From contig CAJQHO010000007.1 of NCBI GenBank assembly GCA_905478185.1, positions 1 through 58,829 of the forward strand: 58,829 nt of DNA, written 5' to 3'. Both the position numbers and the translations under genes were made by a program. The notes beneath the pieces are model-generated. The model searched no databases and had not been told where the DNA came from. It saw only the letters and a program-made list of their open reading frames with translations. Source of the DNA: an uncultured Flavobacteriales bacterium. GTDB lineage: Bacteria > Bacteroidota > Bacteroidia > Flavobacteriales > BACL11. Positions 1 through 35,811 of the stretch are shown one piece after another (the stretch's first letter is position 1; every line of letters begins with the position of its first letter).

Positions 1-262
1 TTCCATCTACTCCATTTGTTCCATCAACACCAGCAGCACCATCATTACCGTCTACTCCGTTAGTTCCATCTATTCCGTTTGTACCTGCAGGACCTGTTAA
101 TCCAATAGGACCTTGTGCACCTGTTGCACCATCATTTCCATCTACTCCATTTGTTCCATCAACACCAGCAGCACCATCATTACCGTCTACTCCGTTAGTT
201 CCATCTATTCCGTTTGTACCTGCAGGACCTGTTAATCCAATAGGACCTTGTGCACCTGTTGC
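1..262. repeat. 135-bp tandem repeat (45 codons, 15 G-X-Y triplets) in the collagen region
   Basis: Bases 1-127 are identical to 136-262; the repeat may continue past the left edge. Confidence 0.93.
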
Positions 263-724
263 TCCTGTATCTCCTGGTAATCCCTGAATACCTTGTAATC
301 CTTGCGGACCTGGTAACATTGAACCAGAAGTTTCTGCATATAATGCATAAGGAACACTTCGTAATTGTGTAGTACCCATTACAATATAACTTGTTCCTCC
401 TGTAACATCAACAGCTACTTCGATAAAGTAAGTATGGTTTCCCCAGTCTATATTACTCCAAGATCCTGACATTACTCCTCCATCTCCAATAGAAAGATTA
501 ACTAAACCTAACTCATTAGTGGTTGCAGTATGAGCTTCAGTATAGATTGCTGTACCATTAGCTACATCCTCAATAATTGAAATCTCTAAACTTATATTCT
601 GATTAGATAGAACTTGCCAACTAGCATCTCTAATTACCGTCTGGTAAGAAAATGATTGTGGGGCTTGAGCAAATAACATTACACTTAATGTTACAGTTGC
701 TAATAATGTAAATAGTTTTTTCAT
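1..724 (-). CDS. Secreted collagen-like (G-X-Y repeat) protein, truncated by the window edge
   Basis: Not in the ORF track; translated by hand from ATG at 724: MKKLFTLLATVTLSVMLFAQAPQSFSYQTVIRD...WSNIDWG...QLRSVPYALYAETSG, then uninterrupted GPQGLQGIQGLPGDTGATGAQGPIGLTGPAGTNGIDG... to position 1. Confidence 0.9.
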   Translation of the reverse strand, partial: MKKLFTLLATVTLSVMLFAQAPQSFSYQTVIRDASWQVLSNQNISLEISIIEDVANGTAIYTEAHTATTNELGLVNLSIGDGGVMSGSWSNIDWGNHTYFIEVAVDVTGGTSYIVMGTTQLRSVPYALYAETSGSMLPGPQGLQGIQGLPGDTGATGAQGPIGLTGPAGTNGIDGTNGVDGNDGAAGVDGTNGVDGNDGATGAQGPIGLTGPAGTNGIDGTNGVDGNDGAAGVDGTNGVDG

Positions 725-725
725 C

Positions 726-1193
726 TTATTTTGATTTGTTTATTTGATAAACAGATTGCTTATCTGCTATATTTATATGTAAAAAGTAATTTCCTTGTTT
801 TAAAAAGCTAAAGTCAAATTGCTTTTGGTTCTCATCATTTAATTTATCCTTAAGAACTAGCTTTCCATTAATGTCATAAACCAATATATCGGCTTTAACA
901 TTCATTTCAAGCTCTAAAATTAAAAAATTTGTAGTAGGATTAGGATAAACTTTTGTTTTAATATCGATATTCTCAACACTTGTGTTTACTTTTAAAACGC
1001 CTTGATGAAATCCTTGAGTTAAAATAGTAGTGCTATTAGTCTGTGTCTCAACTACAATCTCTCCTAAAGTATAATCCATATTTACTCCTCCATTATTGTA
1101 GGAATTACCAGAACTAGAAATAACTGAAGGTGAGGTGATTTGCCCAAAACCAATCAAAGGCAAGCAAAGTAATATAAGTAGTAGTTTTTTCAT
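726..1193 (-). CDS. Small T9SS type A sorting domain protein
   Basis: Signal peptide MKKLLLILLCLPLIGFG; VISSSG...YTLGE...LTQGFHQ domain; C-terminal VYPNPT...YDINGK...GNYFL sorting domain; stop 1 nt before the collagen gene start. Confidence 0.88.
   Translation of the reverse strand: MKKLLLILLCLPLIGFGQITSPSVISSSGNSYNNGGVNMDYTLGEIVVETQTNSTTILTQGFHQGVLKVNTSVENIDIKTKVYPNPTTNFLILELEMNVKADILVYDINGKLVLKDKLNDENQKQFDFSFLKQGNYFLHINIADKQSVYQINKSK
1170..1193 (-). repeat. Shared 5' block ATGAAAAAACTACTACTTATATTA, exact copy
   Basis: Exact 24-mer also at 1672-1695 and 2242-2265; 1 mismatch at 2906-2929; 2 mismatches at 35497-35520 (+). Confidence 0.92.
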
Positions 1194-1194
1194 T

Positions 1195-1234
1195 GTTAAT
1201 CTATTGTTTATTCTATAACTATTCTTTTCTCTAC
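1195..1234 (-). repeat. Gene-junction motifs: 27-nt 3' tail GTAGAGAAAAGAATAGTTATAGAATAA (1208-1234) and 12-nt spacer CAATAGATTAAC (1195-1206)
   Basis: Both recur exactly on the + strand, at 35785-35811 and 35773-35784. Confidence 0.9.
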
Positions 1235-1695
1235 TGTTCCATCATCATAGATGTAAAAGAGAGGTTGATTAGTGCCTTTTGTTTCTCTACCTAATAGGTC
1301 TGTTACTTTAAGGAGTTCTTTGTTTGTAGTGTGTTCTTTAATTGCAGCAGTTCCATCAATAACAGTAAACTCTCCAATCATTCCATTTGGAATATGAGGA
1401 GTGCAAACATATTCATATAGCCCTGCAACTTGAGGAATATATTGGAAAAAGGTATCTGCAGGTAATTGCCATATTTGATTAAAAGGAATTGCTCCATTAG
1501 GAATATTGTCAGATGTTATGGTATGAGTCATAGTTGGAGGGTCAAGCTGAACCCATTGTACAGTATCTCCTAATTGCACTGTAATATTGTTGAAGGTAGA
1601 AACTGATAGTAACCGTTCCACACCTGTATTTGATGTATATCTCCTTTTACATAAAAAGAAGAAAGAATAAGTAATATAAGTAGTAGTTTTTTCAT
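1208..1695 (-). pseudogene. Plastocyanin/azurin-like blue copper protein with a short sorting-like C-terminal tail; frameshifted near 1590 (pseudogene or sequencing error)
   Basis: ATG at 1695 reads MKKLLLILLILSSFYVKGDIHQIQVWNGYYQFLPS. Adding one A at about 1590 joins it to NNITVQLGDTVQW...HTIT...YEYVCTPHIPNGM (H...C-x2-H-x4-M type 1 Cu ligands) and the tail TDLLGRET...PLFYIYDDGTVEKRIVIE. Confidence 0.75.
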
Positions 1696-1702
1696 CTTAG
1701 TT
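1672..1702 (-). repeat. Shared 5' block plus upstream AACTAAG
   Basis: 31 nt identical to 2242-2272, including 7 non-coding bases. Confidence 0.92.
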
Positions 1703-1713
1703 TATTGTTTAAT

Positions 1714-2265
1714 TTATTCAATAATTATACTGTCAATTATAAGCTTGAAATTTTCATTTTTTTTATTACCAATAAGAAAAGTAATTTGTTCAATATAATC
1801 ATTATTAAAATTTTTAATATCTAATCTTCTGCCACGAAAAGATGCATACATTTCTTTTAATGGAATTATAATTTCTTCCCATTTACCTGATGTTTTGAAT
1901 GGAAGTATATATGAGTAATAATCATTTGTATTAGCTTTAATTCTCAATTGATATTCCTTTTCATCTCCTTTTATCTTTAATTTGATGCTCTTTTTGTCCT
2001 TAATATAGATTCTTTTGCAATTATACCTTACAGAAGCAAAACCACCATTATAAGCTGTAGATATTTTTCCGCCAAAAACTCCATTACTATTTTTGTTTAT
2101 GGTTAAATTACTTTTAGAGACTCCGCCCATCACATCATCATTAACAATCACCCATTCTTGTAAATTATCTTCATTATTAAAATGATAGATAACATTTTGA
2201 GAGAAAAGAAACTTTAAATTAAAAAACATTAAAAAGAAAGTTAATATAAGTAGTAGTTTTTTCAT
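1714..2265 (-). CDS. CIA30 family protein
   Basis: WVIVNDDVMGGVS, NGGFASVR, KGDEKEYQLR and FRGR motifs. Confidence 0.88.
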   Translation of the reverse strand: MKKLLLILTFFLMFFNLKFLFSQNVIYHFNNEDNLQEWVIVNDDVMGGVSKSNLTINKNSNGVFGGKISTAYNGGFASVRYNCKRIYIKDKKSIKLKIKGDEKEYQLRIKANTNDYYSYILPFKTSGKWEEIIIPLKEMYASFRGRRLDIKNFNNDYIEQITFLIGNKKNENFKLIIDSIIIE

Positions 2266-2272
2266 CTTAGTT
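2242..2272 (-). repeat. Shared 5' block plus upstream AACTAAG
   Basis: 31 nt identical to 1672-1702; ATAGATTAACA lies a few bases further upstream. Confidence 0.92.
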
Positions 2273-2425
2273 GTTTGTTAATCTATTTTTTTAATTGTTC
2301 CTTTCTTAAATGGCATAATCTATCGTTTAGTATATAATAGAAAATAGGCTCTTTTGTTTTAAAATTTGCAAGTAGTTCCAAATGATATTTCTTTAATCCA
2401 ATCGTTGAATGTGAAGTTGATGGCT

Positions 2426-2929
2426 CTAATAATAGTAATATGATTCATATATTATGGCAAGTATAAAAGCTAATAATCCAAATGCTAATCCAATAATTGA
2501 TAAAGTTTTTCTGCTATTTTTCTTAAACAATCCAATAACTCCAAGAACAAGCGCTACAGAACTAAAAATCCAAGTATATACTATTGTTGTCAATAATGCT
2601 GTTACACCAAAAACTAATGCTAAAAGTCCATAAATATCAAATCTACCACTTTCTAATTTAGAGTTATTATTACCTTTTATAATATCTTTTGTTCCATCAG
2701 AGTATCTTATCATTATTACGTCTGATTTATTAATAGAAAATAAAGGACCTTCTAAATTGTCACATTTCTTATATTTAATTAAATCTGGCGTGACTTCAAT
2801 AACTTTTGCAGAAATCTCTTTTCCGTCTTTTAAAATAATATTATCACATTCTTCAAAAAATGTATTTATTGGAAAAGATGCAAGCCCAATCATAGGCAAG
2901 CAAAGTAATATAAGTAATAGTTTTTTCAT
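2426..2929 (-). CDS. Hypothetical membrane protein (small soluble domain plus about 3 C-terminal TM helices, DUF4190-like)
   Basis: Signal MKKLLLILLCLPMIGLA; CDNIILKDGKEISAKVIEV...IKYKKC domain; hydrophobic C-terminus. Confidence 0.75.
   Translation of the reverse strand: MKKLLLILLCLPMIGLASFPINTFFEECDNIILKDGKEISAKVIEVTPDLIKYKKCDNLEGPLFSINKSDVIMIRYSDGTKDIIKGNNNSKLESGRFDIYGLLALVFGVTALLTTIVYTWIFSSVALVLGVIGLFKKNSRKTLSIIGLAFGLLAFILAIIYESYYYY
2866..2929 (-). repeat. Extended shared 5' block (64 nt)
   Basis: 59/64 nt identical to 35497-35560 (+); first 44 nt match the start of 726..1193 at 42 positions. Confidence 0.92.
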
Positions 2930-3285
2930 TGTTTATCGCCTTCCCAAGTTCCTGTAAAACCAACTGATGAATTAGTCCAAGTTCCGCTTCCAGAATTACC
3001 GCTAAGTTGTCCAACAAAATTACTCCCAAGTGTGCCAGACCCAGCTGTTGCTGAAAAAGATCCGTTAGATGTTACTGAACCACTTAAATTTTGATTATCT
3101 CCAATAGAATTAGTTGAACTTCCGTTAATATCCCCAGTTGAAGAAATTGTAGCAGCCCAAACTCCAGAATCATCACCTGAATAAGTTCCAGTCCAATTTC
3201 CAGTAAAAATATTATCTTCCTCTTCTTTCTTACAAGCTGAAAATATAATTGATACTGCTAATAATGTGTAAAGTAGTTTTTTCAT
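2926..3285 (-). CDS. Hypothetical lipoprotein, Gly/Ser/Thr-rich beta domain
   Basis: Lipobox IFSAC followed by KKEEED; repeated G-x-W-x-G motifs; ATGA overlap with the next gene. Confidence 0.8.
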   Translation of the reverse strand: MKKLLYTLLAVSIIFSACKKEEEDNIFTGNWTGTYSGDDSGVWAATISSTGDINGSSTNSIGDNQNLSGSVTSNGSFSATAGSGTLGSNFVGQLSGNSGSGTWTNSSVGFTGTWEGDKQ

Positions 3286-3313
3286 AATTATATGTTTTAA
3301 AGTTTTTAAAGTC

Positions 3314-3321
3314 CAAAGATA
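3314..3321 (-). promoter_or_regulatory. Bacteroidota -7 promoter box TATCTTTG heading the gene array
   Basis: Matches TAnnTTTG, 28 nt upstream of ATG 3285. Confidence 0.7.
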
Positions 3322-3472
3322 ATGATTAAAAAGTTAAATCTTCTACGAAAAACACGTAGAGGATAATTTCTTAACTATTCCCCAATTTGTCTTAGTATCA
3401 CAGATGTATTTAGCTACATACATACTAGCACTCTTTTCATAAGGCTCGTGCTTTAGGTATTTACCTATAAGG

Positions 3473-4471
3473 TTACTCATCAAGCAATTCAAACAAATCA
3501 TCTAAGTTAGGTGATAGTATCATTTCAATTCTTCTGTTAGCACTTCTTCCTTCTTTAGTTTTATTAGTTGCAATAGGAACAAATTCTGCTCTACCAGCAG
3601 CTGTTAATTGTAAAGGATCTAAACTTGGGGTTTTCAAAAGTACTTTTACAACATTGGTTGCTCGCATCACACTCAAATCCCAATTGTCTTTTACCAAACC
3701 TCTACCGCTTAATGGTATGCTATCGGTATGTCCTTCAACTAAAATTTCCAAATCCTTTTGGCTAGCAAGTGCAGTAGCTAATTTACTTAATGCGGAAACG
3801 CCTCCACTGTTTACTTCATATTTTCCACTCGCAAAAAGCAAATCTTCTTCTAAGGAAATGTACACTTTTCCGTTTTTCTGAACTACTGTAAGTCCCTCAC
3901 CCTCTAAACCAATTAATGCTTTGGAAATAGAAGATTTAAGTGCAGTAACTATCGAATCTTTTTTATTGATAATTGTTTCTAATTCTGTTACTCTAGCAGA
4001 ACGAGCATCTAATTCTTCTTGGGCTAATTTTAGCTCATCTTCCTTTGCTTCCAATGATGCTGAGAGTTTATTAAGCTCATCTTCTTTTGCAAAAAGTTCA
4101 GTTTGTGCTTGTTCCAATTGCTCCAACAATTTCTTAGTTTCTTTGGCCTTATCAGCCATATACCTACTATTCTTGGAAGTCAATAAATCATATGCATCAC
4201 TTAGCTCGCTATACTTGCTTTGTAAAGTAGTAAGTGCAATTCCGTTCTGAACAGAGTCGTTTCTCATTTCAGAAATTTGAGATTTTAAGGAAATAATAGT
4301 TCCTTCTTGCTCCTCAATAGTTCCGTTAAGTTGCAACACTTTTTTCTCCTGTGTAGTTAAAGCTGATTTAGTAGCGTCATGTTCCATAACTAAAGCATTA
4401 TATATTTTTGGAGTTACACACGAGCTTAATACCAATAATAGTGTACTAATATAAAGAATTGACTTTTGCAT
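3473..4471 (-). CDS. OmpA/MotB-family peptidoglycan-binding lipoprotein with a long coiled coil
   Basis: Lipobox LSSC; heptad-rich middle; LLFASG, VEGHTD, NWDLSVMRA and NRRIEM motifs. Confidence 0.92.
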   Translation of the reverse strand: MQKSILYISTLLLVLSSCVTPKIYNALVMEHDATKSALTTQEKKVLQLNGTIEEQEGTIISLKSQISEMRNDSVQNGIALTTLQSKYSELSDAYDLLTSKNSRYMADKAKETKKLLEQLEQAQTELFAKEDELNKLSASLEAKEDELKLAQEELDARSARVTELETIINKKDSIVTALKSSISKALIGLEGEGLTVVQKNGKVYISLEEDLLFASGKYEVNSGGVSALSKLATALASQKDLEILVEGHTDSIPLSGRGLVKDNWDLSVMRATNVVKVLLKTPSLDPLQLTAAGRAEFVPIATNKTKEGRSANRRIEMILSPNLDDLFELLDE

Positions 4472-4496
4472 AATTTAATGATTTTTAATCTGATAT

Positions 4497-4504
4497 CAAA
4501 ACTA
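4497..4504 (-). promoter_or_regulatory. -7 promoter box TAGTTTTG for the OmpA-family gene
   Basis: TAnnTTTG 25 nt upstream of ATG 4471. Confidence 0.6.
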
Positions 4505-4571
4505 CAAAAAAGGAAGCTTAGTATTTTGTTCTTATTTTTACTTTTCAACAGCAATACTTTAACTACTAAAC

Positions 4572-4597
4572 AAAAAAGCACACTAAAAAGTGTGCTT
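4572..4597 (-). terminator. Rho-independent terminator
   Basis: Stem AAGCACACT-AAAA-AGTGTGCTT with a T run on the minus strand, just after the stop at 4606. Confidence 0.8.
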
Positions 4598-4605
4598 AAT
4601 TTATC

Positions 4606-5037
4606 TTAGTATTCTAATGCCCAATACCCTTCCACCCAAAAGAACCCTCTAGGGCTTATTTCCCAAAATCCAGGTACCCACATATGATTTCGTTTAACTC
4701 TTTTCCATCTTGCTTTTTGCCAAGTATAGCTTCCGTAATAAACATTCCATTTCCAGTAACCCTCTACCCAAATATATCCAGTTCTATTATAAGTTGGTCT
4801 GTTTACAATTACTCTTGGTCTATTTGGCTTGCTAACAACTACTCTATTTCTGTTGGTTTTTACCCTAACATTTTGCCTGTTATTATGATGATTAGAGTGA
4901 TTTCCTCTATTGGTTTTTACAACAACCTTCTTATTTGTCCTTCCTTTATTTGTTTTGACTCTTACTTGTGCGCTAGCTGATACTCCTACTAAAAAGAGGG
5001 CTATAAGTAGTAGTTTGCTAAAAATTGTCTTTTTCAT
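4606..5037 (-). CDS. Secreted YXWGXW-repeat protein
   Basis: Start reassigned to ATG 5037 (MKKTIFSKLLLIALF...ASA signal); GYIWVEGYW, MWVPGFW and FWVEGYW repeats. Confidence 0.82.
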   Translation of the reverse strand: MKKTIFSKLLLIALFLVGVSASAQVRVKTNKGRTNKKVVVKTNRGNHSNHHNNRQNVRVKTNRNRVVVSKPNRPRVIVNRPTYNRTGYIWVEGYWKWNVYYGSYTWQKARWKRVKRNHMWVPGFWEISPRGFFWVEGYWALEY

Positions 5038-5097
5038 GGCTATTGTTTTTAAGATTAGTATTTTTATGACTTTAAAATTGAATGAGAATTTAAAGAT

Positions 5098-5649
5098 ATG
5101 AAAAAAATTATAAATTACTTTTTGCAAGGATTATTATACATTGTACCTATAACGGTAACTTTGTATGTTGTAGTATGGACTTTCCAAAAAATTGATGGAA
5201 TTCTACCATTTCAATTCCCTGGACTTGGTTTAATTATCATTATTTCATTAATCACAATTATTGGGTTTCTAGGATCGGCAGTTATTACTAGTCCTATCAA
5301 TGCTTTTTTTCAAAATTTATTAAAAAGAGCTCCTTTACTTAAAACTATTTATTCATCAGTAAAGGATTTGATGAACACATTTGTTGGTAATAAAAAAGGG
5401 TTTTCTGAGCCCGTATTAGTTAAAATCTATGAGAACTCAACTATTGAAAGAATAGGATTTATTACTAATGAAGATGTAGAAACGCTTAATATTGCAAAAG
5501 GAAAAGTACTCGTTTATATGCCACACTCTTATGCAATTTCAGGACAATTATTTGTGGTAGAGAAAAAGAATGTATCCCCTATTGATAAATCCTCAGCAGA
5601 GATTATGAAACTTATAGTTTCTGGGGGGGTAACCGAAATTGACAATTAA
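5098..5649 (+). CDS. DUF502 membrane protein
   Basis: FLQGLL..VPI.VT, P.LKTIYSSVKDL, VYMPHSY.ISG and MKLIVSGG motifs. Confidence 0.88.
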   Translation: MKKIINYFLQGLLYIVPITVTLYVVVWTFQKIDGILPFQFPGLGLIIIISLITIIGFLGSAVITSPINAFFQNLLKRAPLLKTIYSSVKDLMNTFVGNKKGFSEPVLVKIYENSTIERIGFITNEDVETLNIAKGKVLVYMPHSYAISGQLFVVEKKNVSPIDKSSAEIMKLIVSGGVTEIDN

Positions 5650-5658
5650 AAACATAAC

Positions 5659-8600
5659 ATGAAAAAAATATTTTACTTACTAATAGCAATATTCATCATT
5701 ATCCAAAGTTCAGCTCAAAACCCAGGGGACACCATAGTTGTGCAAACTTTTGATTATAATATGACATATGGAAGCGGGCCTTGGTCAGGAGGTGATAGGG
5801 ATACTATTGCTCATTTCCCAAATGACCCTAATCTAACCTTTGAAAAAATTATATTATCCTATAATATGAGATGTAAGGATAATGTGGTAAATACAAACGG
5901 ACAATCAAATAGCATAGGTTGTGGAGCTTGGGACTATTCTTGTCATACTTATATTCATGATTCAACAAGAATTGATTCTATTTTATCTTATCAATCAAGT
6001 CATACTGTTTCATCTTTTTCTGGAAGCGTTTATAATTATTCTTTAAATCCGGTTTATAATTTTTATCAATACCAACAGCAAACTGCTATAATAAATTCAA
6101 TAGTTTCGGAAGACACTATTCAGATAGGAAATGGTGCAGATTCCCTTGATTTTGTAATTGCAACAGAGCAAAATTCTCATAAGTCTCAGTTTTTGTACAA
6201 AGCAAATGAATTGATTGCTTTAGGATTAATAAATGACACAATCAATGCGCTTTCATTTAATGTGCTTAGCAATACTCAGGCAGCAAATTTCTTAACAATA
6301 AAATTAAAGCATACTGCCGACAGCATATTAAGTAATGTAAATCCTCATCTAAATGGATTTACGGAAGTTTATAATGCAAATACAATTCTTAATAATGGTG
6401 TTAACCGATTCCAATTTATTCATGACTTTGTTTGGGATTCAGTGTCTAATATAATAGTTGAATTCTCAATAACAAATTCAACTGCTGTAGGTACAAGCTT
6501 AATTGAAGGAGAACAAACAAATGATAACTTAGGATTGTTTTCAAATGACGCAAATTATATTACTGTAAATTCTGCTGAAAGTATTGATTTACCGGTTGCT
6601 GCAATGAGCAATATATCTGATGAGGTTACAGTTTCATTTTGGATTAATGGGAACGAGAATGTAATGCCTCAGAATACTACAATATTGGAAGCTTATGATG
6701 CAAATAATTACAGAACGTTAAATATCCACTTTCCTTGGAGTAATGGCAGGATGTATTGGGACTGTGGGAATAGCGGGACTACATCTTATGATAGAATTGA
6801 CAAAGCAGCATCATTAAGTGAATATACAGATGGATGGAGTCATTGGGCATTTACAAAAAATGCAAATACCGGAGATTTAAAAATATACAGAAATGGTGTA
6901 TTATGGCATTCAGGAACTGGTTTTACAAGAACAATAGATATAGCAACATTAAAATTAGCAAGTCAGGGTAATTCTAACGGATATTTTTGGGATGGACACA
7001 TAAAAGAGTTAAGAATATTTGACAAAGAACTATCTATGTCAACTATAAGCGAATGGTTAAATAAACGAATTGATAGTTCACATCCTGATTATACAAATTT
7101 AGTTGCTCATTATCCTTTAAATGAGGGTCAAGGGACAACATCTTTAGACAATACAACAAGTCAACAAATTGCAACTTTTAGTGGAAATGTTAATTGGGGC
7201 TATACTAGAGGAGATGAAATAGGTCAATTTTTTACAGAAGTAAATTCTCGACCAAATATTAACTTTTACCAGGGCCAGTATTCTTTAACTATTAATACTG
7301 ATGCAATATTAGATTCATTAATTGCTAGCGCAAATACTGTTACGCAATATGCAATAGAGCCCAATTATGGAACTTTACAAAATGATAGTATTGCTACTGT
7401 TTCTACTAACACTTATTGGGAGGCATTGTCTTATTTATTTGATGGAAATGGAAATGTGTTAAGTGTAGATACAACAAACATTGATGGGTCAATTTCTATT
7501 ACTGATTTAATCTATTATAAACGTTACCCAATGGCTTTTCAAATCATGTCATTTGTCACTCCATATGGTGCATATCTGGATTTAGGGATTGAAGGTAAAA
7601 CATGGTATTTTGATGTTACCGATTACGCTCCAGTTTTAAAAGGAAATAAGCAAATCACAATGGGTGGTGGTGGACAATGGCAAGAAGATATGGATATTAA
7701 ATTTTTATTTATTGTTGGGACACCTACTAGAGATGTATTAGAAATGCAACAAATATGGAGGCCGCAATCAAAAGGGTATGGATCAATTATTGATGATAAT
7801 GCTTTCGAGCCAAGAGATGTATTAATGCATCCCAATGCAACTGCCTATAAGATAAGAACTACAATAACAGGACATGGTCAAGAAGGTGAATTTATACCTC
7901 AGAATCATACAATCAATATTGATGGGGGTTCGGTTGATTATACTTGGCAAGTTTGGACTGAGTGTGCTGAAAACCCAATTTTTCCACAAGGTGGAACTTG
8001 GATTTATGATAGAGCTGGCTGGTGCCCTGGACAAGCATCTGATCTAAGAGAAGATGATATTACTTCATTAGTCACACCAGGTCAAATACATAATATAGAT
8101 TATGGGATTGTTAGCGCCACTGGGGCTTCTAATTATTGGGTAAGTTCCCAGCTAGTTAGTTATGATGAAACAAATTTTACTTTAGATGCTGCTATAGTTG
8201 ACATTTTATCCCCTACTAATAAAGTAAATTATCAGAAAGCAAACCCTATTTGCTCAAAACCAGAAATTACTATCCAGAATACAGGGAGTACTCCTATAAC
8301 ATCATTAACAATTGAGTATTGGATTAATAATGCTCCTTCTAAAGAATCATTTACATGGACGGGAATCCTTTCTTTCCTCCAAAAGGAGACTATAAAGCTC
8401 CCGGATCCAAGCTCTTTATGGGATAACATGACTATTAATAATAACTCATTTCATGTTGAAATAATAAATAGTAATGGAGGGGCAGATCAGTATATTCATA
8501 ATAACAAAATGAGTTCAACTTTTGACCCTACACCTATTTATCCTAATACTTTTGCGTTATGGTTTCAAACTAATAGTGGAGTAATTAATACCTTTACTCA

Positions 8601-35496: not shown

Positions 35497-35769
35497 ATGA
35501 AAAAGTTACTACTTATATTACTTTGCTTGCCTATGATTGGGGTTGCCTCTTTTCCAATAATTACAGATACTAAAAAATGTGAAAGAACAACAGTTCCTTT
35601 AGATTATGATGTTAATCAAAAGACAGATAATGAAAATAGTAAAATAGAAATAATAAAGTCACCTTTAGAAAAAGATGGTTTTTGGAAGGTTATGCGCTGG
35701 TTACGTATAATCTTTATAATCTTGTTGTCCATTATTGTTATAGCATTAGTATTGGCTGATTTAAATTAA
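35497..35769 (+). CDS. Small hypothetical membrane protein carrying the shared 5' block
   Basis: MKKLLLILLCLPMIGVASFPI is nearly identical to the start of 2426..2929; one C-terminal TM helix. Confidence 0.75.
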   Translation: MKKLLLILLCLPMIGVASFPIITDTKKCERTTVPLDYDVNQKTDNENSKIEIIKSPLEKDGFWKVMRWLRIIFIILLSIIVIALVLADLN

Positions 35770-35772
35770 TTT

Positions 35773-35811
35773 CAATAGATTAACGTAGAGAAAAGAATAG
35801 TTATAGAATAA
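35773..35811 (+). repeat. Fused junction motifs CAATAGATTAAC + GTAGAGAAAAGAATAGTTATAGAATAA (possible empty-cassette scar)
   Basis: Exact reverse-complement matches to 1195-1206 and 1208-1234; the 27-mer encodes VEKRIVIE* with no start codon of its own. Confidence 0.88.

What the first reader, a model, noticed from the sequence alone, without database searches (positions are those of the whole stretch)
1..3285. Cassette-like array: unrelated exported-protein genes share one nucleotide 5' block
Seen: six tandem minus-strand genes start at 724, 1193, 1695, 2265, 2929 and 3285. ATGAAAAAACTACTACTTATATTA is exact at three starts and has 1 mismatch at a fourth; the other two share only the first 12-14 nt. 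Identity covers synonymous Leu codons (CTA CTA CTT ATA TTA) and runs into non-coding DNA (31 nt identical at 1672-1702 and 2242-2272; ATAGATTAACA upstream of both 1193 and 2265). After the block the genes are unrelated: collagen, T9SS partner, cupredoxin, CIA30, membrane protein, lipoprotein. Established: signal peptides normally diverge quickly and are not conserved at codon level between unrelated genes. Inference: the stop-spacer-start-signal junction acts as a portable recombination handle. It would let 350-650 bp genes be added, swapped or lost with translation start and export signal already in place. This resembles an integron array but has no attC hairpins and no integrase in view. I know of no described system that fits.
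Basis: partly seen in the sequence, partly recalled or inferred. Interest (0 to 1): 0.88.

Follow-up and report, generated by a model that had tools for sequence, protein, structure and literature searches.

The report
Swappable exported-protein genes with shared ends
In an uncultured family of small marine Flavobacteriales, many unrelated exported-protein genes begin, and often end, with the same stretch of DNA, and these shared ends mark where such genes are swapped, gained and lost between genomes.

Summary
The 24-mer is exact at 1193, 1695 and 2265 and has 1 mismatch at 2929. It is part of a module running from about -30 to +54 ("L1": A-rich spacer plus MKKLLLILLCLPMIGFGQ). The genome holds 9 exact copies and 18 with up to 3 mismatches. 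Codon usage predicts under 0.01 exact copies. L1 occurs in 23 of 24 other genomes of the family and in 1 of 16 genomes of other families of the order. A second repeated module ends many of these genes: a roughly 45-aa C-terminal tail plus stop. The window array is cargo of a decayed island of a tRNA-Ser-linked type; Rep and DUF5681 remnants lie at 3361-3477 and 2295-2363. In 5 of 5 further loci compared with five congeners, genes are present, absent or replaced, and homology ends at L1 or at the tail or stop. The cupredoxin cassette is 99.4% identical in its body to a copy at another locus of a relative whose flanking core genes are 92.5% identical, and mismatches cluster inside the tail. It is not an integron. 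The best reading is that short homology arms let exported-protein genes be exchanged by homologous recombination. The mechanism is inferred, not observed.

The parts
2..724 (-). Collagen-repeat exported protein gene, running off the contig start. Its start shares only 12 nt with L1. It forms a two-gene unit with the 155-aa gene upstream.
   Evidence: PF01391, 2.2e-17. The pair recurs three times in G001 and at least twice in G010.
726..1193 (-). 155-aa protein with an L1 leader (exact over 54 nt) and a T9SS type A sorting domain.
   Evidence: PF18962 1.3e-13; TIGR04183 1.5e-12.
1194..1207 (-). Spacer ACAATAGATTAACA between the tail stop and the next ATG. It is part of the repeated junction.
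   Evidence: The whole junction (tail, stop, spacer, L1) is 95% identical over 140 nt to G000:C28:7150-7289.
1208..1346 (-). Tail module: the last ~45 codons plus stop of the cupredoxin gene (...LLKVTDLLGRETKGTNQPLFYIYDDGTVEKRIVIE*). This is the 3' homology arm.
   Evidence: 18 blastn-short matches to the tail query in G000, the window's own copy included. It is the commonest hit in 61 family genomes. Minor codons are conserved. The mismatch cluster against the G002 copy lies here.
1208..1695 (-). Cupredoxin cassette (L1, plastocyanin-like domain, tail), frameshifted near 1591-1600.
   Evidence: The intact twin in G002:C58 (162 aa) lies at a different locus. A +G allele that restores the frame is in one X18 contig; the frameshift allele is in X1 and X4 contigs.
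1714..2265 (-). CIA30-domain cassette with an exact L1 24-mer.
   Evidence: PF08547 1.4e-37. A 94% nt copy in G042 (another genus) and a 90% copy in G001:C1 both stand alone in core-like contexts.
2266..2294 (-). Array-type spacer (TTAAAAAAATAGATTAACAAACAACTAAG), fused directly to the DUF5681 remnant.
2295..2363 (-). Remnant of the upstream region and first ~7 codons (MPFKKGT) of the island's DUF5681 gene.
   Evidence: 80-91% identity to copies in G002, G001 and G010; PF18932 on the intact G002 gene; 4 intact copies elsewhere in G000.
2426..2929 (-). 167-aa membrane-anchored protein with L1 (1 mismatch) and an ...ASFP motif after the leader. No known family.
2926..3285 (-). 119-aa lipoprotein with the second repeated leader type (L2: MKKLLYTLLAVSIIFSAC).
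   Evidence: 5 blastn-short matches to the L2 query in G000, the window's own copy included; L2 genes in arrays of other genera.
3361..3477 (-). 3' remnant of the island's small Rep gene (REP_ORF2-G2P type), lying directly after the stop of the OmpA-family gene.
   Evidence: 74% aa identity over residues 93-131, E 6e-15; for the family.
3473..4471 (-). OmpA-family gene: the conserved flank. Homology to G001 and G002 (91.5-92.5% nt) ends at its stop codon, window 3474.
35497..35811 (+). A single L1 cassette (90 aa, ASFP type) lies between the GH20-like and GH92-like core genes. It is followed by a scar made of a spacer fragment plus the last 27 nt of a tail, which abuts the ATG of the next gene.
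   Evidence: G014 carries an LRR-plus-tail gene in this slot.

Best explanation
The window's first 3.3 kb is the cargo end of a decayed genomic island of a type that, in its intact copy on contig C23 of this genome, lies next to a tRNA-Ser gene. The cargo consists of small genes for exported proteins. These genes belong to a family-wide pool of cassettes that share two copied DNA modules. The first is a 5' module, L1: about 25-30 nt of A-rich spacer plus the first 30-54 nt of the signal-peptide coding region. In many genes there is also a 3' module: the last 60-140 nt, which encode a roughly 45-aa C-terminal tail plus the stop codon. Shown: the modules are homologous DNA and not convergent codon choice. 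They are found in all 16 genera sampled. Genes carrying them are gained, lost and replaced at fixed slots, and homology ends at the modules. At least one cassette moved recently and has a mosaic tail. Inferred: the modules act as short homology arms for ordinary RecA-type homologous recombination or gene conversion. This would operate between loci and, after DNA transfer, between species. Any cargo placed between the arms would arrive with a translation start, a Sec or lipoprotein leader and, where the tail is present, a C-terminal tag. Integrase-bearing islands are one vehicle but are not required. Also inferred: the A-rich, unstructured junction doubles as the translation-initiation region in these bacteria. 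That second role would help explain why its nucleotides are held constant.
For: 1. DNA homology, not codon bias. 8 of 10 MKKLLLIL genes use the identical 24 nt, against an expectation under 0.01. Outside the 24 nt used to find copies, 94 unique copies keep CTT at codon 9 (61 of 67 Leu; bulk use 0.18), TGC at codon 10 (53 of 60 Cys; bulk 0.27) and TTG at codon 11 (39 of 70 Leu; bulk 0.17).
2. Range. With up to 1 mismatch, the 24-mer is in 23 of 24 other family genomes and in 1 of 16 genomes of other families; the reversed control gave 0 everywhere. 57 of 61 family genomes and 16 of 16 genera match the region. The 30-mer is in 68 stretches of the species-level genome collection, 64 of them labelled Flavobacteriales, Bacteroidota or Cryomorphaceae.
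3. Clustering. Tandem arrays occur in other genera. In G000 there are 2 adjacent pairs against 0.096 expected, P = 0.004, which is an undercount.
4. Variable content. Downstream of the OmpA-family gene, 11 congeners carry different genes. Homology to G001 and G002 stops at the OmpA stop codon.
5. Slot tests. 5 of 5 further L1 or tail loci are polymorphic among five congeners, with homology ending 12-54 nt into L1 and at the tail or stop. At C51:21777, G000 has L1-LRR-tail, G002 has L1-cupredoxin-tail, and G001 and G014 are empty.
6. Recent movement and mosaicism. The window cupredoxin matches the G002:C58 copy at 345 of 347 body positions, while the flanks are unrelated from -1 and from +1 after the stop. 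In the variable half of the tail 50 of 60 positions match (Fisher P = 1.3e-7). Nearby core DNA is 92.5% identical.
7. Cassettes closer than their flanks: 91% against 82-83%, 93% against 78%, and CIA30 at 94% between genera.
8. Orphan leaders. 9 of 94 copies head ORFs under 35 aa, and some lie at otherwise empty slots.
9. Island context.
Against: No recombination event was seen directly. Contigs of four metagenomes break at every block, so order and rearrangement could not be read. L1 is only 24-54 nt long, near the lower limit for RecA-type exchange (this limit is recalled, not tested). Replacement at core slots can also arise from crossovers in the core flanks, because every cassette carries L1 and a tail anyway; only the cupredoxin case needs crossovers at the cassette ends. 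Stand-alone orthologues of the cupredoxin and CIA30 genes have leaders that differ from L1 by 1-5 nt and diverge only slightly more slowly than the gene body (81-96% against 67-96%). Copies therefore form a graded cloud and are not always homogenised. Tail copies are as alike between genera as within one genome (0.734 against 0.742; third codon positions 0.64 throughout). That pattern fits a shared pool but fits nucleotide-level selection equally well. All genomes are MAGs or SAGs, so misjoins at repeats cannot be excluded for the order of the window array. No RNA or protein evidence exists for expression or export. The copies counted are related to one another, so the binomial and Fisher P values overstate independence.
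Confidence: 0.62

Rival explanations
1. Selection on the nucleotides themselves explains the conservation. On this view the junction (tail end, spacer and the first codons) is an optimal translation-initiation and export cassette for bacteria that do not use Shine-Dalgarno pairing. Recombination at the junction is then incidental and has no role in keeping the copies alike.
For: The junction RNAs are A-rich and no more structured than shuffles. Tail identity does not fall with phylogenetic distance, and minor codons are held at 0.9 or more. In several loci the tail stop abuts the ATG of the next gene, and at 35785-35811 a 27-nt tail end is retained in front of the GH92-like gene after the rest of that gene was lost.
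Against: Selection cannot create identical 60-140-nt stretches in unrelated genes; copying is still needed. Conservation reaches +54 and -140, beyond a ribosome footprint. It does not explain cassettes that are more similar than their flanks or the mosaic tail. Most signal-like genes in the genome (116 of 130) do without L1.
Confidence: 0.2
2. A dedicated site-specific system acts on the junction: an integron-like or rAID-like tyrosine recombinase, or the island's small Rep acting as a nicking enzyme.
For: Arrays lie directly downstream of the Rep gene in intact islands and next to Rep remnants. Integrases are present in these islands. A repeated 24-nt spacer flanks one two-gene unit in G001 (D10).
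Against: The integrases score 52-53 bits against a cut-off of 265 for the integron-integrase model. The att repeat that was seen is a tRNA 3' end. No hairpins or consistent inverted repeats occur at the junctions. The Rep was found in 8 of 24 family genomes against 23 of 24 for L1. L1 mini-arrays lie between core genes with no island genes nearby. No resolvase was found in G000.
Confidence: 0.07
3. An ordinary paralogous family: one ancestral exported-protein gene duplicated, and the mature parts then diverged beyond recognition.
For: Some cargo types recur, for example LRR proteins, ASFP membrane proteins and small Cys-rich lipoproteins.
Against: The cargo carries unrelated Pfam domains: CIA30, Copper-bind, LRR_4, PKD_6, Peptidase_M14 and Por_Secre_tail. 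Leaders are identical at synonymous sites while the cargo cannot be aligned.
Confidence: 0.04
4. Chance, codon bias or metagenome misassembly at low-complexity AT-rich starts.
For: MKK followed by Leu/Ile is a common start in this genome (130 signal-like starts). All genomes compared are MAGs or SAGs.
Against: Expected exact copies are under 0.01 against 8-9 observed. The reversed-pattern control gave 0 in 41 genomes. The same modules appear in a one-contig genome (G008), in genomes of 2-4 contigs (G015, G010) and in runs of 11 studies. Exact metagenome contigs carry the cassette bodies with their leaders and tails.
Confidence: 0.02

Closest known systems
Surface-protein gene families with conserved 5' and 3' ends (Helicobacter pylori bab/Hop, Mycoplasma vsp/vlp, Trypanosoma cruzi MASP)
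   Same: The start (with signal peptide) and the end (with a sorting or anchor signal) are conserved, the middle varies, members are clustered, and the shared ends are linked to recombination. [quoted passage not shown] The nucleotide-level conservation and the bacterial examples are recalled, not read.
   Different: There the variable middle is a variant of one protein family. Here the cargo is unrelated folds (CIA30, cupredoxin, LRR, peptidase, PKD), and the shared modules span at least 16 genera.
Orphan toxin/immunity modules of polymorphic toxin systems (CdiA-CT and Rhs-CT arrays)
   Same: Arrays of promoterless modules lie behind a conserved junction that serves as a homology arm for swapping the variable part (recalled, not read).
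   Different: No toxin or immunity families were detected here. The arm is a signal-peptide coding region at the 5' end, not a pre-toxin motif inside a large gene.
Integrons
   Same: Co-oriented, tightly packed small genes with a repeated junction; content varies between relatives.
   Different: No IntI-type integrase and no attC-like hairpins. The spacers are 1-18 nt, apart from one 160-nt gap that holds the DUF5681 remnant. The repeat lies at the 5' end and inside the coding region.
rAID-1 arrays of Bacteroidales (Ross et al., bioRxiv 10.1101/471110; passages read)
   Same: Same phylum. Arrays of up to 31 small genes with repetitive intergenic sequences, described by the authors as reminiscent of integrons and suggestive of active gene acquisition.
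   Different: rAID-1 has a conserved XerD-family recombinase at its head and cargo related to immunity genes. Here no Xer-like gene is seen next to an array, and the repeat extends into the signal peptide. I could not see the rAID-1 motif figure, so the repeats were not compared.
Flexible genomic islands for cell-surface proteins in aquatic prokaryotes (e.g. Haloquadratum walsbyi GI1, PMC4535781; passages read) and tRNA-linked integrative islands
   Same: Hypervariable islands rich in exported or surface proteins, diversified by homologous recombination and mobile elements. Integrase, excisionase-like HTH and an adjacent tRNA are present.
   Different: Those islands are not reported, in the passages I read, to have a standard junction shared by unrelated cargo genes, nor single-gene slots scattered between core genes.

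Membership tests
Integron | IntI-type tyrosine recombinase next to the array | tested here: not met
   No integrase lies in the window near the array. G000 has 4 Phage_integrase hits, on C62, C49, C10 and C23. Island integrases score 52-53 bits against a cut-off of 265 for TIGR02249. The window array runs off the contig start, so the far end is unseen.
Integron | attC: an imperfect inverted repeat at the 3' end of each cassette | tested here: not met
   Spacers are 1, 14 and 18 nt, one pair of genes overlaps by 4 nt, and one 160-nt gap holds the DUF5681 remnant. Junction folds are not stronger than shuffles. No consistent inverted repeats occur at the junctions.
Integron | Co-oriented, closely packed cassettes whose content varies between relatives | tested here: met
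rAID-1 (Bacteroidales) | Conserved XerD-family recombinase at the head of the array | tested here: not met
   The two Xer-like genes (about 298 aa) on C62 and C49 are not next to an array. The head of the window array is a Rep remnant.
rAID-1 (Bacteroidales) | Repetitive intergenic sequences between array genes | tested here: met
   The spacer AAAACAATAGATTAACA[ATAAACTAAGATT] recurs before array genes in several genera. It was not compared with the rAID-1 motif, which I could not see.
rAID-1 (Bacteroidales) | Cargo related to immunity genes | tested here: inconclusive
   Pfam and NCBIfam named no immunity family. No search against T6SS immunity sets was made.
tRNA-linked integrative island | Tyrosine integrase plus excisionase-like HTH | tested here: met
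   Met in G000:C23, G001:C6 and G002:C97. In the window only Rep and DUF5681 remnants remain.
tRNA-linked integrative island | Insertion at a tRNA gene, with a direct repeat of its 3' end | tested here: met
   tRNA-Ser lies next to the C23 island. A 22-nt direct repeat resembling a tRNA 3' end flanks the G001:C6 island. No tRNA is in the window itself. The link between C23 and C7 is inferred from the gene order in G002.
Conserved-ends surface-protein gene families | Nucleotide-conserved 5' end (with signal peptide) and 3' end | tested here: met
Conserved-ends surface-protein gene families | The variable middle belongs to one protein family | tested here: not met
   The cargo carries unrelated Pfam domains.
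Conserved-ends surface-protein gene families | Mosaic genes or gene conversion between members | tested here: met
   Cupredoxin pair: body 345 of 347, variable half of the tail 50 of 60, P = 1.3e-7. This is one case only.
T9SS type A C-terminal sorting domain (for the tail) | Match to Por_Secre_tail / TIGR04183 | tested here: not met
   0 of 10 tail proteins match at E <= 1. An HMM built from 29 of this genome's own sorting domains finds 41 ORFs at E < 1e-3 but 0 of 11 tail ORFs at E <= 10. hhalign gives probability 22.5% over 14 columns.

The most novel reading that the evidence does not exclude
The junction DNA (spacer plus L1, and the tail end) is the cis-acting site of a dedicated, lineage-specific platform for capturing exported-protein cassettes. 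An unidentified enzyme, possibly the small Rep of the islands, would act on it. That would amount to an integron-like system whose recombination site lies inside the signal-peptide coding sequence, so that every captured gene is expressed and exported on arrival.
Probability: 0.08. Interest if true: 0.9.

Novelty: new variant of a known kind. Interest (0 to 1): 0.64.

Why it matters
Signal peptides are normally among the fastest-diverging parts of a gene. Here a signal-peptide coding block and a C-terminal tail are held almost constant at the nucleotide level. They are shared by unrelated genes in at least 16 genera of an uncultured marine Flavobacteriales family, and they coincide with the points where genes are exchanged. 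The stretch was found in marine metagenome runs of 11 studies. If the reading is right, these streamlined bacteria (1-2 Mb) keep a plug-and-play exported proteome: any domain placed between the two arms arrives with a translation start, an export signal and a tag, and can move between loci and species. That would give a concrete, testable mechanism for how cell-surface "flexible islands" turn over in ocean bacteria. It would also define a new C-terminal tag whose pathway is unknown. In addition, the modules are a practical hazard for metagenome assembly and binning, because contigs break at them.

Tried and rejected
Read mapping. The stretch is held by 20 listed runs of 11 studies. Logan contigs of X1, X4, X9 and X18 break at every block, with pieces ending near 1184-1208, 1680-1698, 2243-2271, 2887-2914 and 3259-3279. 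Summed depth rises at the tail and junction: in bin 1001-1200 it is 245, 66, 46 and 1468, against mostly about 5-50 in flanking bins. All listed joints have short sides (20-49 nt) and are best read as other copies in other organisms. There is therefore no evidence for or against rearrangement, circles or a fixed order.

Rfam at E <= 1 on 1-6000 gave only a chance snoRNA hit. The sigma-70 and terminator scan gave nothing specific to the junctions; one hairpin lies at 3338-3364. The 30-mer had 0 hits in IMG/VR contigs. The ESM Atlas search on the tail gave nothing at 0.9 or above. PHROGs named only the integrase and an excisionase-like HTH.

I considered and rejected a type A T9SS domain for the tail, integron membership, the island integrase acting on the junction, and genome-specific concerted evolution of tails.

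Literature. Searches (terms listed in those calls) returned nothing that describes this leader or this clade's islands. That is two word searches only, not proof of absence. Supplements were closed and none was requested; the rAID-1 motif figure was not seen.

Not used: structure prediction, fold search, complex prediction, the search for homologous proteins, the search of protein representatives.

Full report
OBSERVATION. Reading the minus strand of window 1-4200 and listing ORFs confirms six co-oriented genes starting at 724, 1193, 1695, 2265, 2929 and 3285. They lie downstream of an OmpA-family gene (3473-4471). The 24-mer ATGAAAAAACTACTACTTATATTA is exact at 1193, 1695 and 2265. It has 1 mismatch at 2929 and 2 mismatches at 35497 on the plus strand. 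None was found in 100 shuffles. The 31-nt identity and the ATAGATTAACA motif are present as described. The gene at 1695 is frameshifted.

MORE THAN CHANCE. The genome that holds the window has 1.66 Mb, 66 contigs and 32% G+C. It carries 9 exact copies of the 24-mer and 18 with up to 3 mismatches, all at ATG positions. Among 130 signal-like starts, MKKLLLIL is the commonest 8-residue prefix, occurring 10 times, and 8 of those 10 use the same 24 nt. Given the peptide, the probability of that string is 1.4e-4 with bulk codon use and 5.7e-4 with the codon use of other N-termini. I then looked at 94 unique copies from this genome and from relatives, at positions not used to find them. Codon 9 is CTT in 61 of 67 Leu, codon 10 is TGC in 53 of 60 Cys, and codon 11 is TTG in 39 of 70 Leu. 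Bulk frequencies are 0.18, 0.27 and 0.17. The copies are related to one another, so the P values are overstated, but the direction is clear: this is copied DNA. Conservation runs from about -30 to +54 and then falls to background. The shared part is the n- and h-region of the signal peptide. It continues either to ...IGFGQ or to a lipobox such as ...FSSC.

A SECOND MODULE. Short-word BLAST with the junction found a repeated 3' module. It is the last 60-140 nt of many genes and encodes ...LLGRETKxTNQPLFYIYDDGTVEKRIVIE plus the stop codon. The tail query gave 18 matches in this genome, and 11-14 ORFs end with the motif. On contig C28 the whole junction (tail, stop, spacer, L1) is 95% identical over 140 nt to the one at window 1165-1303. 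The tail is not a recognised T9SS domain. 0 of 10 tail proteins match Pfam at E <= 1. 0 of 11 match an HMM of this genome's own type A domains, which finds 41 other ORFs. hhalign gives a probability of 22.5%. A second leader type, MKKLLYTLLAVSIIFSAC, heads the lipoprotein at 3285 and also recurs.

RANGE. With up to 1 mismatch, the 24-mer is in 23 of 24 other genomes of the family (10 genera), at 1-19 copies each. It is in 1 of 16 genomes from 16 other families of the order. The reversed control gave 0 everywhere. A DNA search with window 1-3300 matched 57 of 61 family genomes and 16 of 16 genera, and the tail and junction were the commonest hits. An exact 30-mer occurs in 68 stretches of a collection of 185,579 species genomes. 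64 of these are labelled Flavobacteriales, Bacteroidota/Bacteroidetes, Cryomorphaceae (one of them "BACL11") or Weeksellaceae. The other 4 are in two MAGs labelled as Proteobacteria. It occurs in 0 viral contigs. Tandem arrays of L1-led small genes, often preceded by the spacer AAAACAATAGATTAACA[ATAAACTAAGATT], occur in other genera.

CONTEXT. The array is island cargo. In relatives and on contig C23 of the same genome the gene order is: integrase; HTH_17 (excisionase-like); a 130-aa Rep (REP_ORF2-G2P); cassettes; DUF5681. The C23 copy lies next to a tRNA-Ser gene. The G001 copy is flanked by a 22-nt direct repeat resembling a tRNA 3' end. In the window, the last ~39 codons of the Rep gene lie directly after the OmpA stop, at 3361-3477. 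The upstream region and first 7 codons of the DUF5681 gene lie at 2295-2363, fused to an array spacer. Gene order in G002 (OmpA, 3 cassettes, DUF5681, asparaginase-like gene) and on C23 (asparaginase-like gene, tRNA-Ser, DUF5681 ...) suggests that C23 and the start of C7 belong to one island; this is an inference. The integrases are generic tyrosine recombinases. The Rep was found in only 8 of 24 family genomes. L1 mini-arrays also lie between core genes with no island genes nearby. The islands are therefore a vehicle for the cassettes and not the cause of the repeats.

CASSETTE BEHAVIOUR. Downstream of the OmpA-family gene, 11 congeners carry different genes on a common backbone. Homology between this genome and its closest relatives (91.5-92.5% nt) ends at the OmpA stop codon. 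I then compared five further L1 or tail loci with five congeners; all five are polymorphic.
- aroC slot on C51. It is empty in G002 and G008. G001 holds a different gene of about 0.65 kb that begins with L1 and ends with a tail. G015 holds 434 nt of other sequence, and G014 has a 181-nt gap. This genome holds two cassettes. Homology ends 12-30 nt into L1 and at the tail stop.
- C25:68,000. The L1-esterase and L2 genes are absent in G001 and G002. The alignments overlap by 40-60 nt in tail sequence.
- C28. The tail gene is absent in G001, where an orphan spacer plus L1 remains. It is present in G014 at 93% identity, against 78% for the flanks.
- C51:21777. This genome has L1-LRR-tail and G002 has L1-cupredoxin-tail. 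Homology runs 27 nt into L1 and resumes about 100-130 nt before the stop. The slot is empty in G001 and G014.
- C25:49225. The cargo is absent in G001, G002 and G008, with 20-43 nt of L1 kept in G001 and G002. G015 has a different cargo of about 1.1 kb behind the same L1.
A sixth case lies in the window itself. At 35497-35811 a single L1 cassette sits between two glycosidase genes. It is followed by a scar of spacer plus the last 27 nt of a tail. G014 has an LRR-tail gene in that slot. In all, 9 of 94 leader copies are orphans.

THE STRONGEST CASE. The G002 cupredoxin cassette in the C51 slot is the twin of the window's cupredoxin cassette. The flanks are unrelated from position -1 and from the base after the stop codon. 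The body matches at 345 of 347 positions, and one of the two differences is the frameshift. L1 matches at 26 of 27 and the last 55 nt at 54 of 55. The variable half of the tail matches at only 50 of 60 (Fisher P = 1.3e-7). Neighbouring core DNA of the two genomes is 92.5% identical. The cargo therefore moved recently between lineages or loci, and a recombination boundary lies inside the tail. A metagenome contig with no differences from the window spans 1244-1698, so the mosaic is not an artefact of this assembly.

MECHANISM. The simplest account is homologous recombination using L1 and the tail (or, in arrays, the next L1) as short arms, fed by DNA exchange within the family. No hairpins, no integron integrase and no resolvase were found. 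Two facts keep the rival of nucleotide-level function alive. First, tail copies are as alike between genera as within a genome, with minor codons fixed. Second, tail ends are kept directly in front of the next gene's ATG. The two readings are compatible: a junction selected as a translation start would also stay recombination-proficient. Stand-alone orthologues of the cupredoxin and CIA30 genes have similar but not identical leaders, so the copies form a cloud around a consensus. What is shown is the pattern. The enzyme, the rate and the direction of exchange are inferred.

COMPARISON AND NOVELTY. The system works like gene families with conserved ends and like orphan toxin modules, but its cargo is unrelated domains. 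It looks like an integron or an rAID-1 array but fails their defining tests. It sits inside the known class of flexible surface-protein islands. Two literature searches found no description of it. I rate it a new variant of a known kind.

LIMITS. All genomes are MAGs or SAGs. The order of the window array could not be checked independently. There are no expression data.

Noticed in passing
window 1591-1600 (cupredoxin gene, minus strand): A one-base frameshift splits the gene. One contig of run X18 carries an extra G after 1591 that restores the frame. Contigs of X1 and X4 carry the frameshift allele without gaps, so both alleles appear to exist in nature. The G002 twin is intact (162 aa).
   Followed up: partly
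window 1208-1346, and 11-14 other ORF ends in G000: A ~45-aa C-terminal tail (...D[LV]LGR...PLFYIYDDGTVEKRIVIE) ends proteins with unrelated domains (LRR, PKD, peptidase M14, cupredoxin). It matches no Pfam or NCBIfam model, and it does not match this genome's own T9SS type A domains. It may be an undescribed sorting tag.
   Followed up: partly
window 35785-35811; G002:C58 (L037:3883); G000:C51 (L048:4819): In several loci the gene after a tail starts directly at, or 1 nt after, the tail's stop codon. At 35785 a 27-nt tail end is kept in front of the GH92-like gene although the rest of the tail gene is gone. The tail end may serve as the translation-start region of the next gene.
   Followed up: no
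window 2-1193; L039 (G001:C6), L040 (G001:C2), L026 (G010:C1): The 155-aa T9SS-domain gene and the collagen-repeat gene travel as a two-gene unit: three copies in G001 and at least two in G010. The N-terminal part of the collagen protein hits NCBIfam Bdello_MAT_N (mosaic adhesive trimer fibre) at 44.7 bits, below the cut-off of 60.
   Followed up: partly
window 3338-3364: A terminator-like hairpin (10 pairs) lies between the OmpA-family gene and the array, inside the Rep remnant region.
   Followed up: no
L046 (G000:C23:20000-33307): An intact island lies next to tRNA-Ser: DUF5681, L1 and L2 cassettes, a 129-aa Rep, two small genes of which the 85-aa one is HTH-like, and a 419-aa integrase. 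It is followed by a second DUF5681 gene, as if elements had accreted in tandem.
   Followed up: partly
L058, L067, L092, L073: Four of the 68 stretches that carry the exact 30-mer lie in two MAGs labelled Thalassomonas sp. and Methylophilaceae. These are probably contigs of this Flavobacteriales family binned into the wrong genomes. The leader could serve as a marker for such errors.
   Followed up: no
L018 (G005) and L019 (G014), directly after the OmpA-family gene: Orphan L1 blocks (27-35 nt, one with the ATG changed) remain at the island site in two congeners that carry no cassette there, as if left by deletions that ended in the block.
   Followed up: partly
window 2426-2929 and 35497-35769; L011:2625-2960; L012: Small proteins share the motif ...ASFP just after the L1 leader and have C-terminal membrane helices. 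This is a recurrent cargo type of unknown function with no family match.
   Followed up: no
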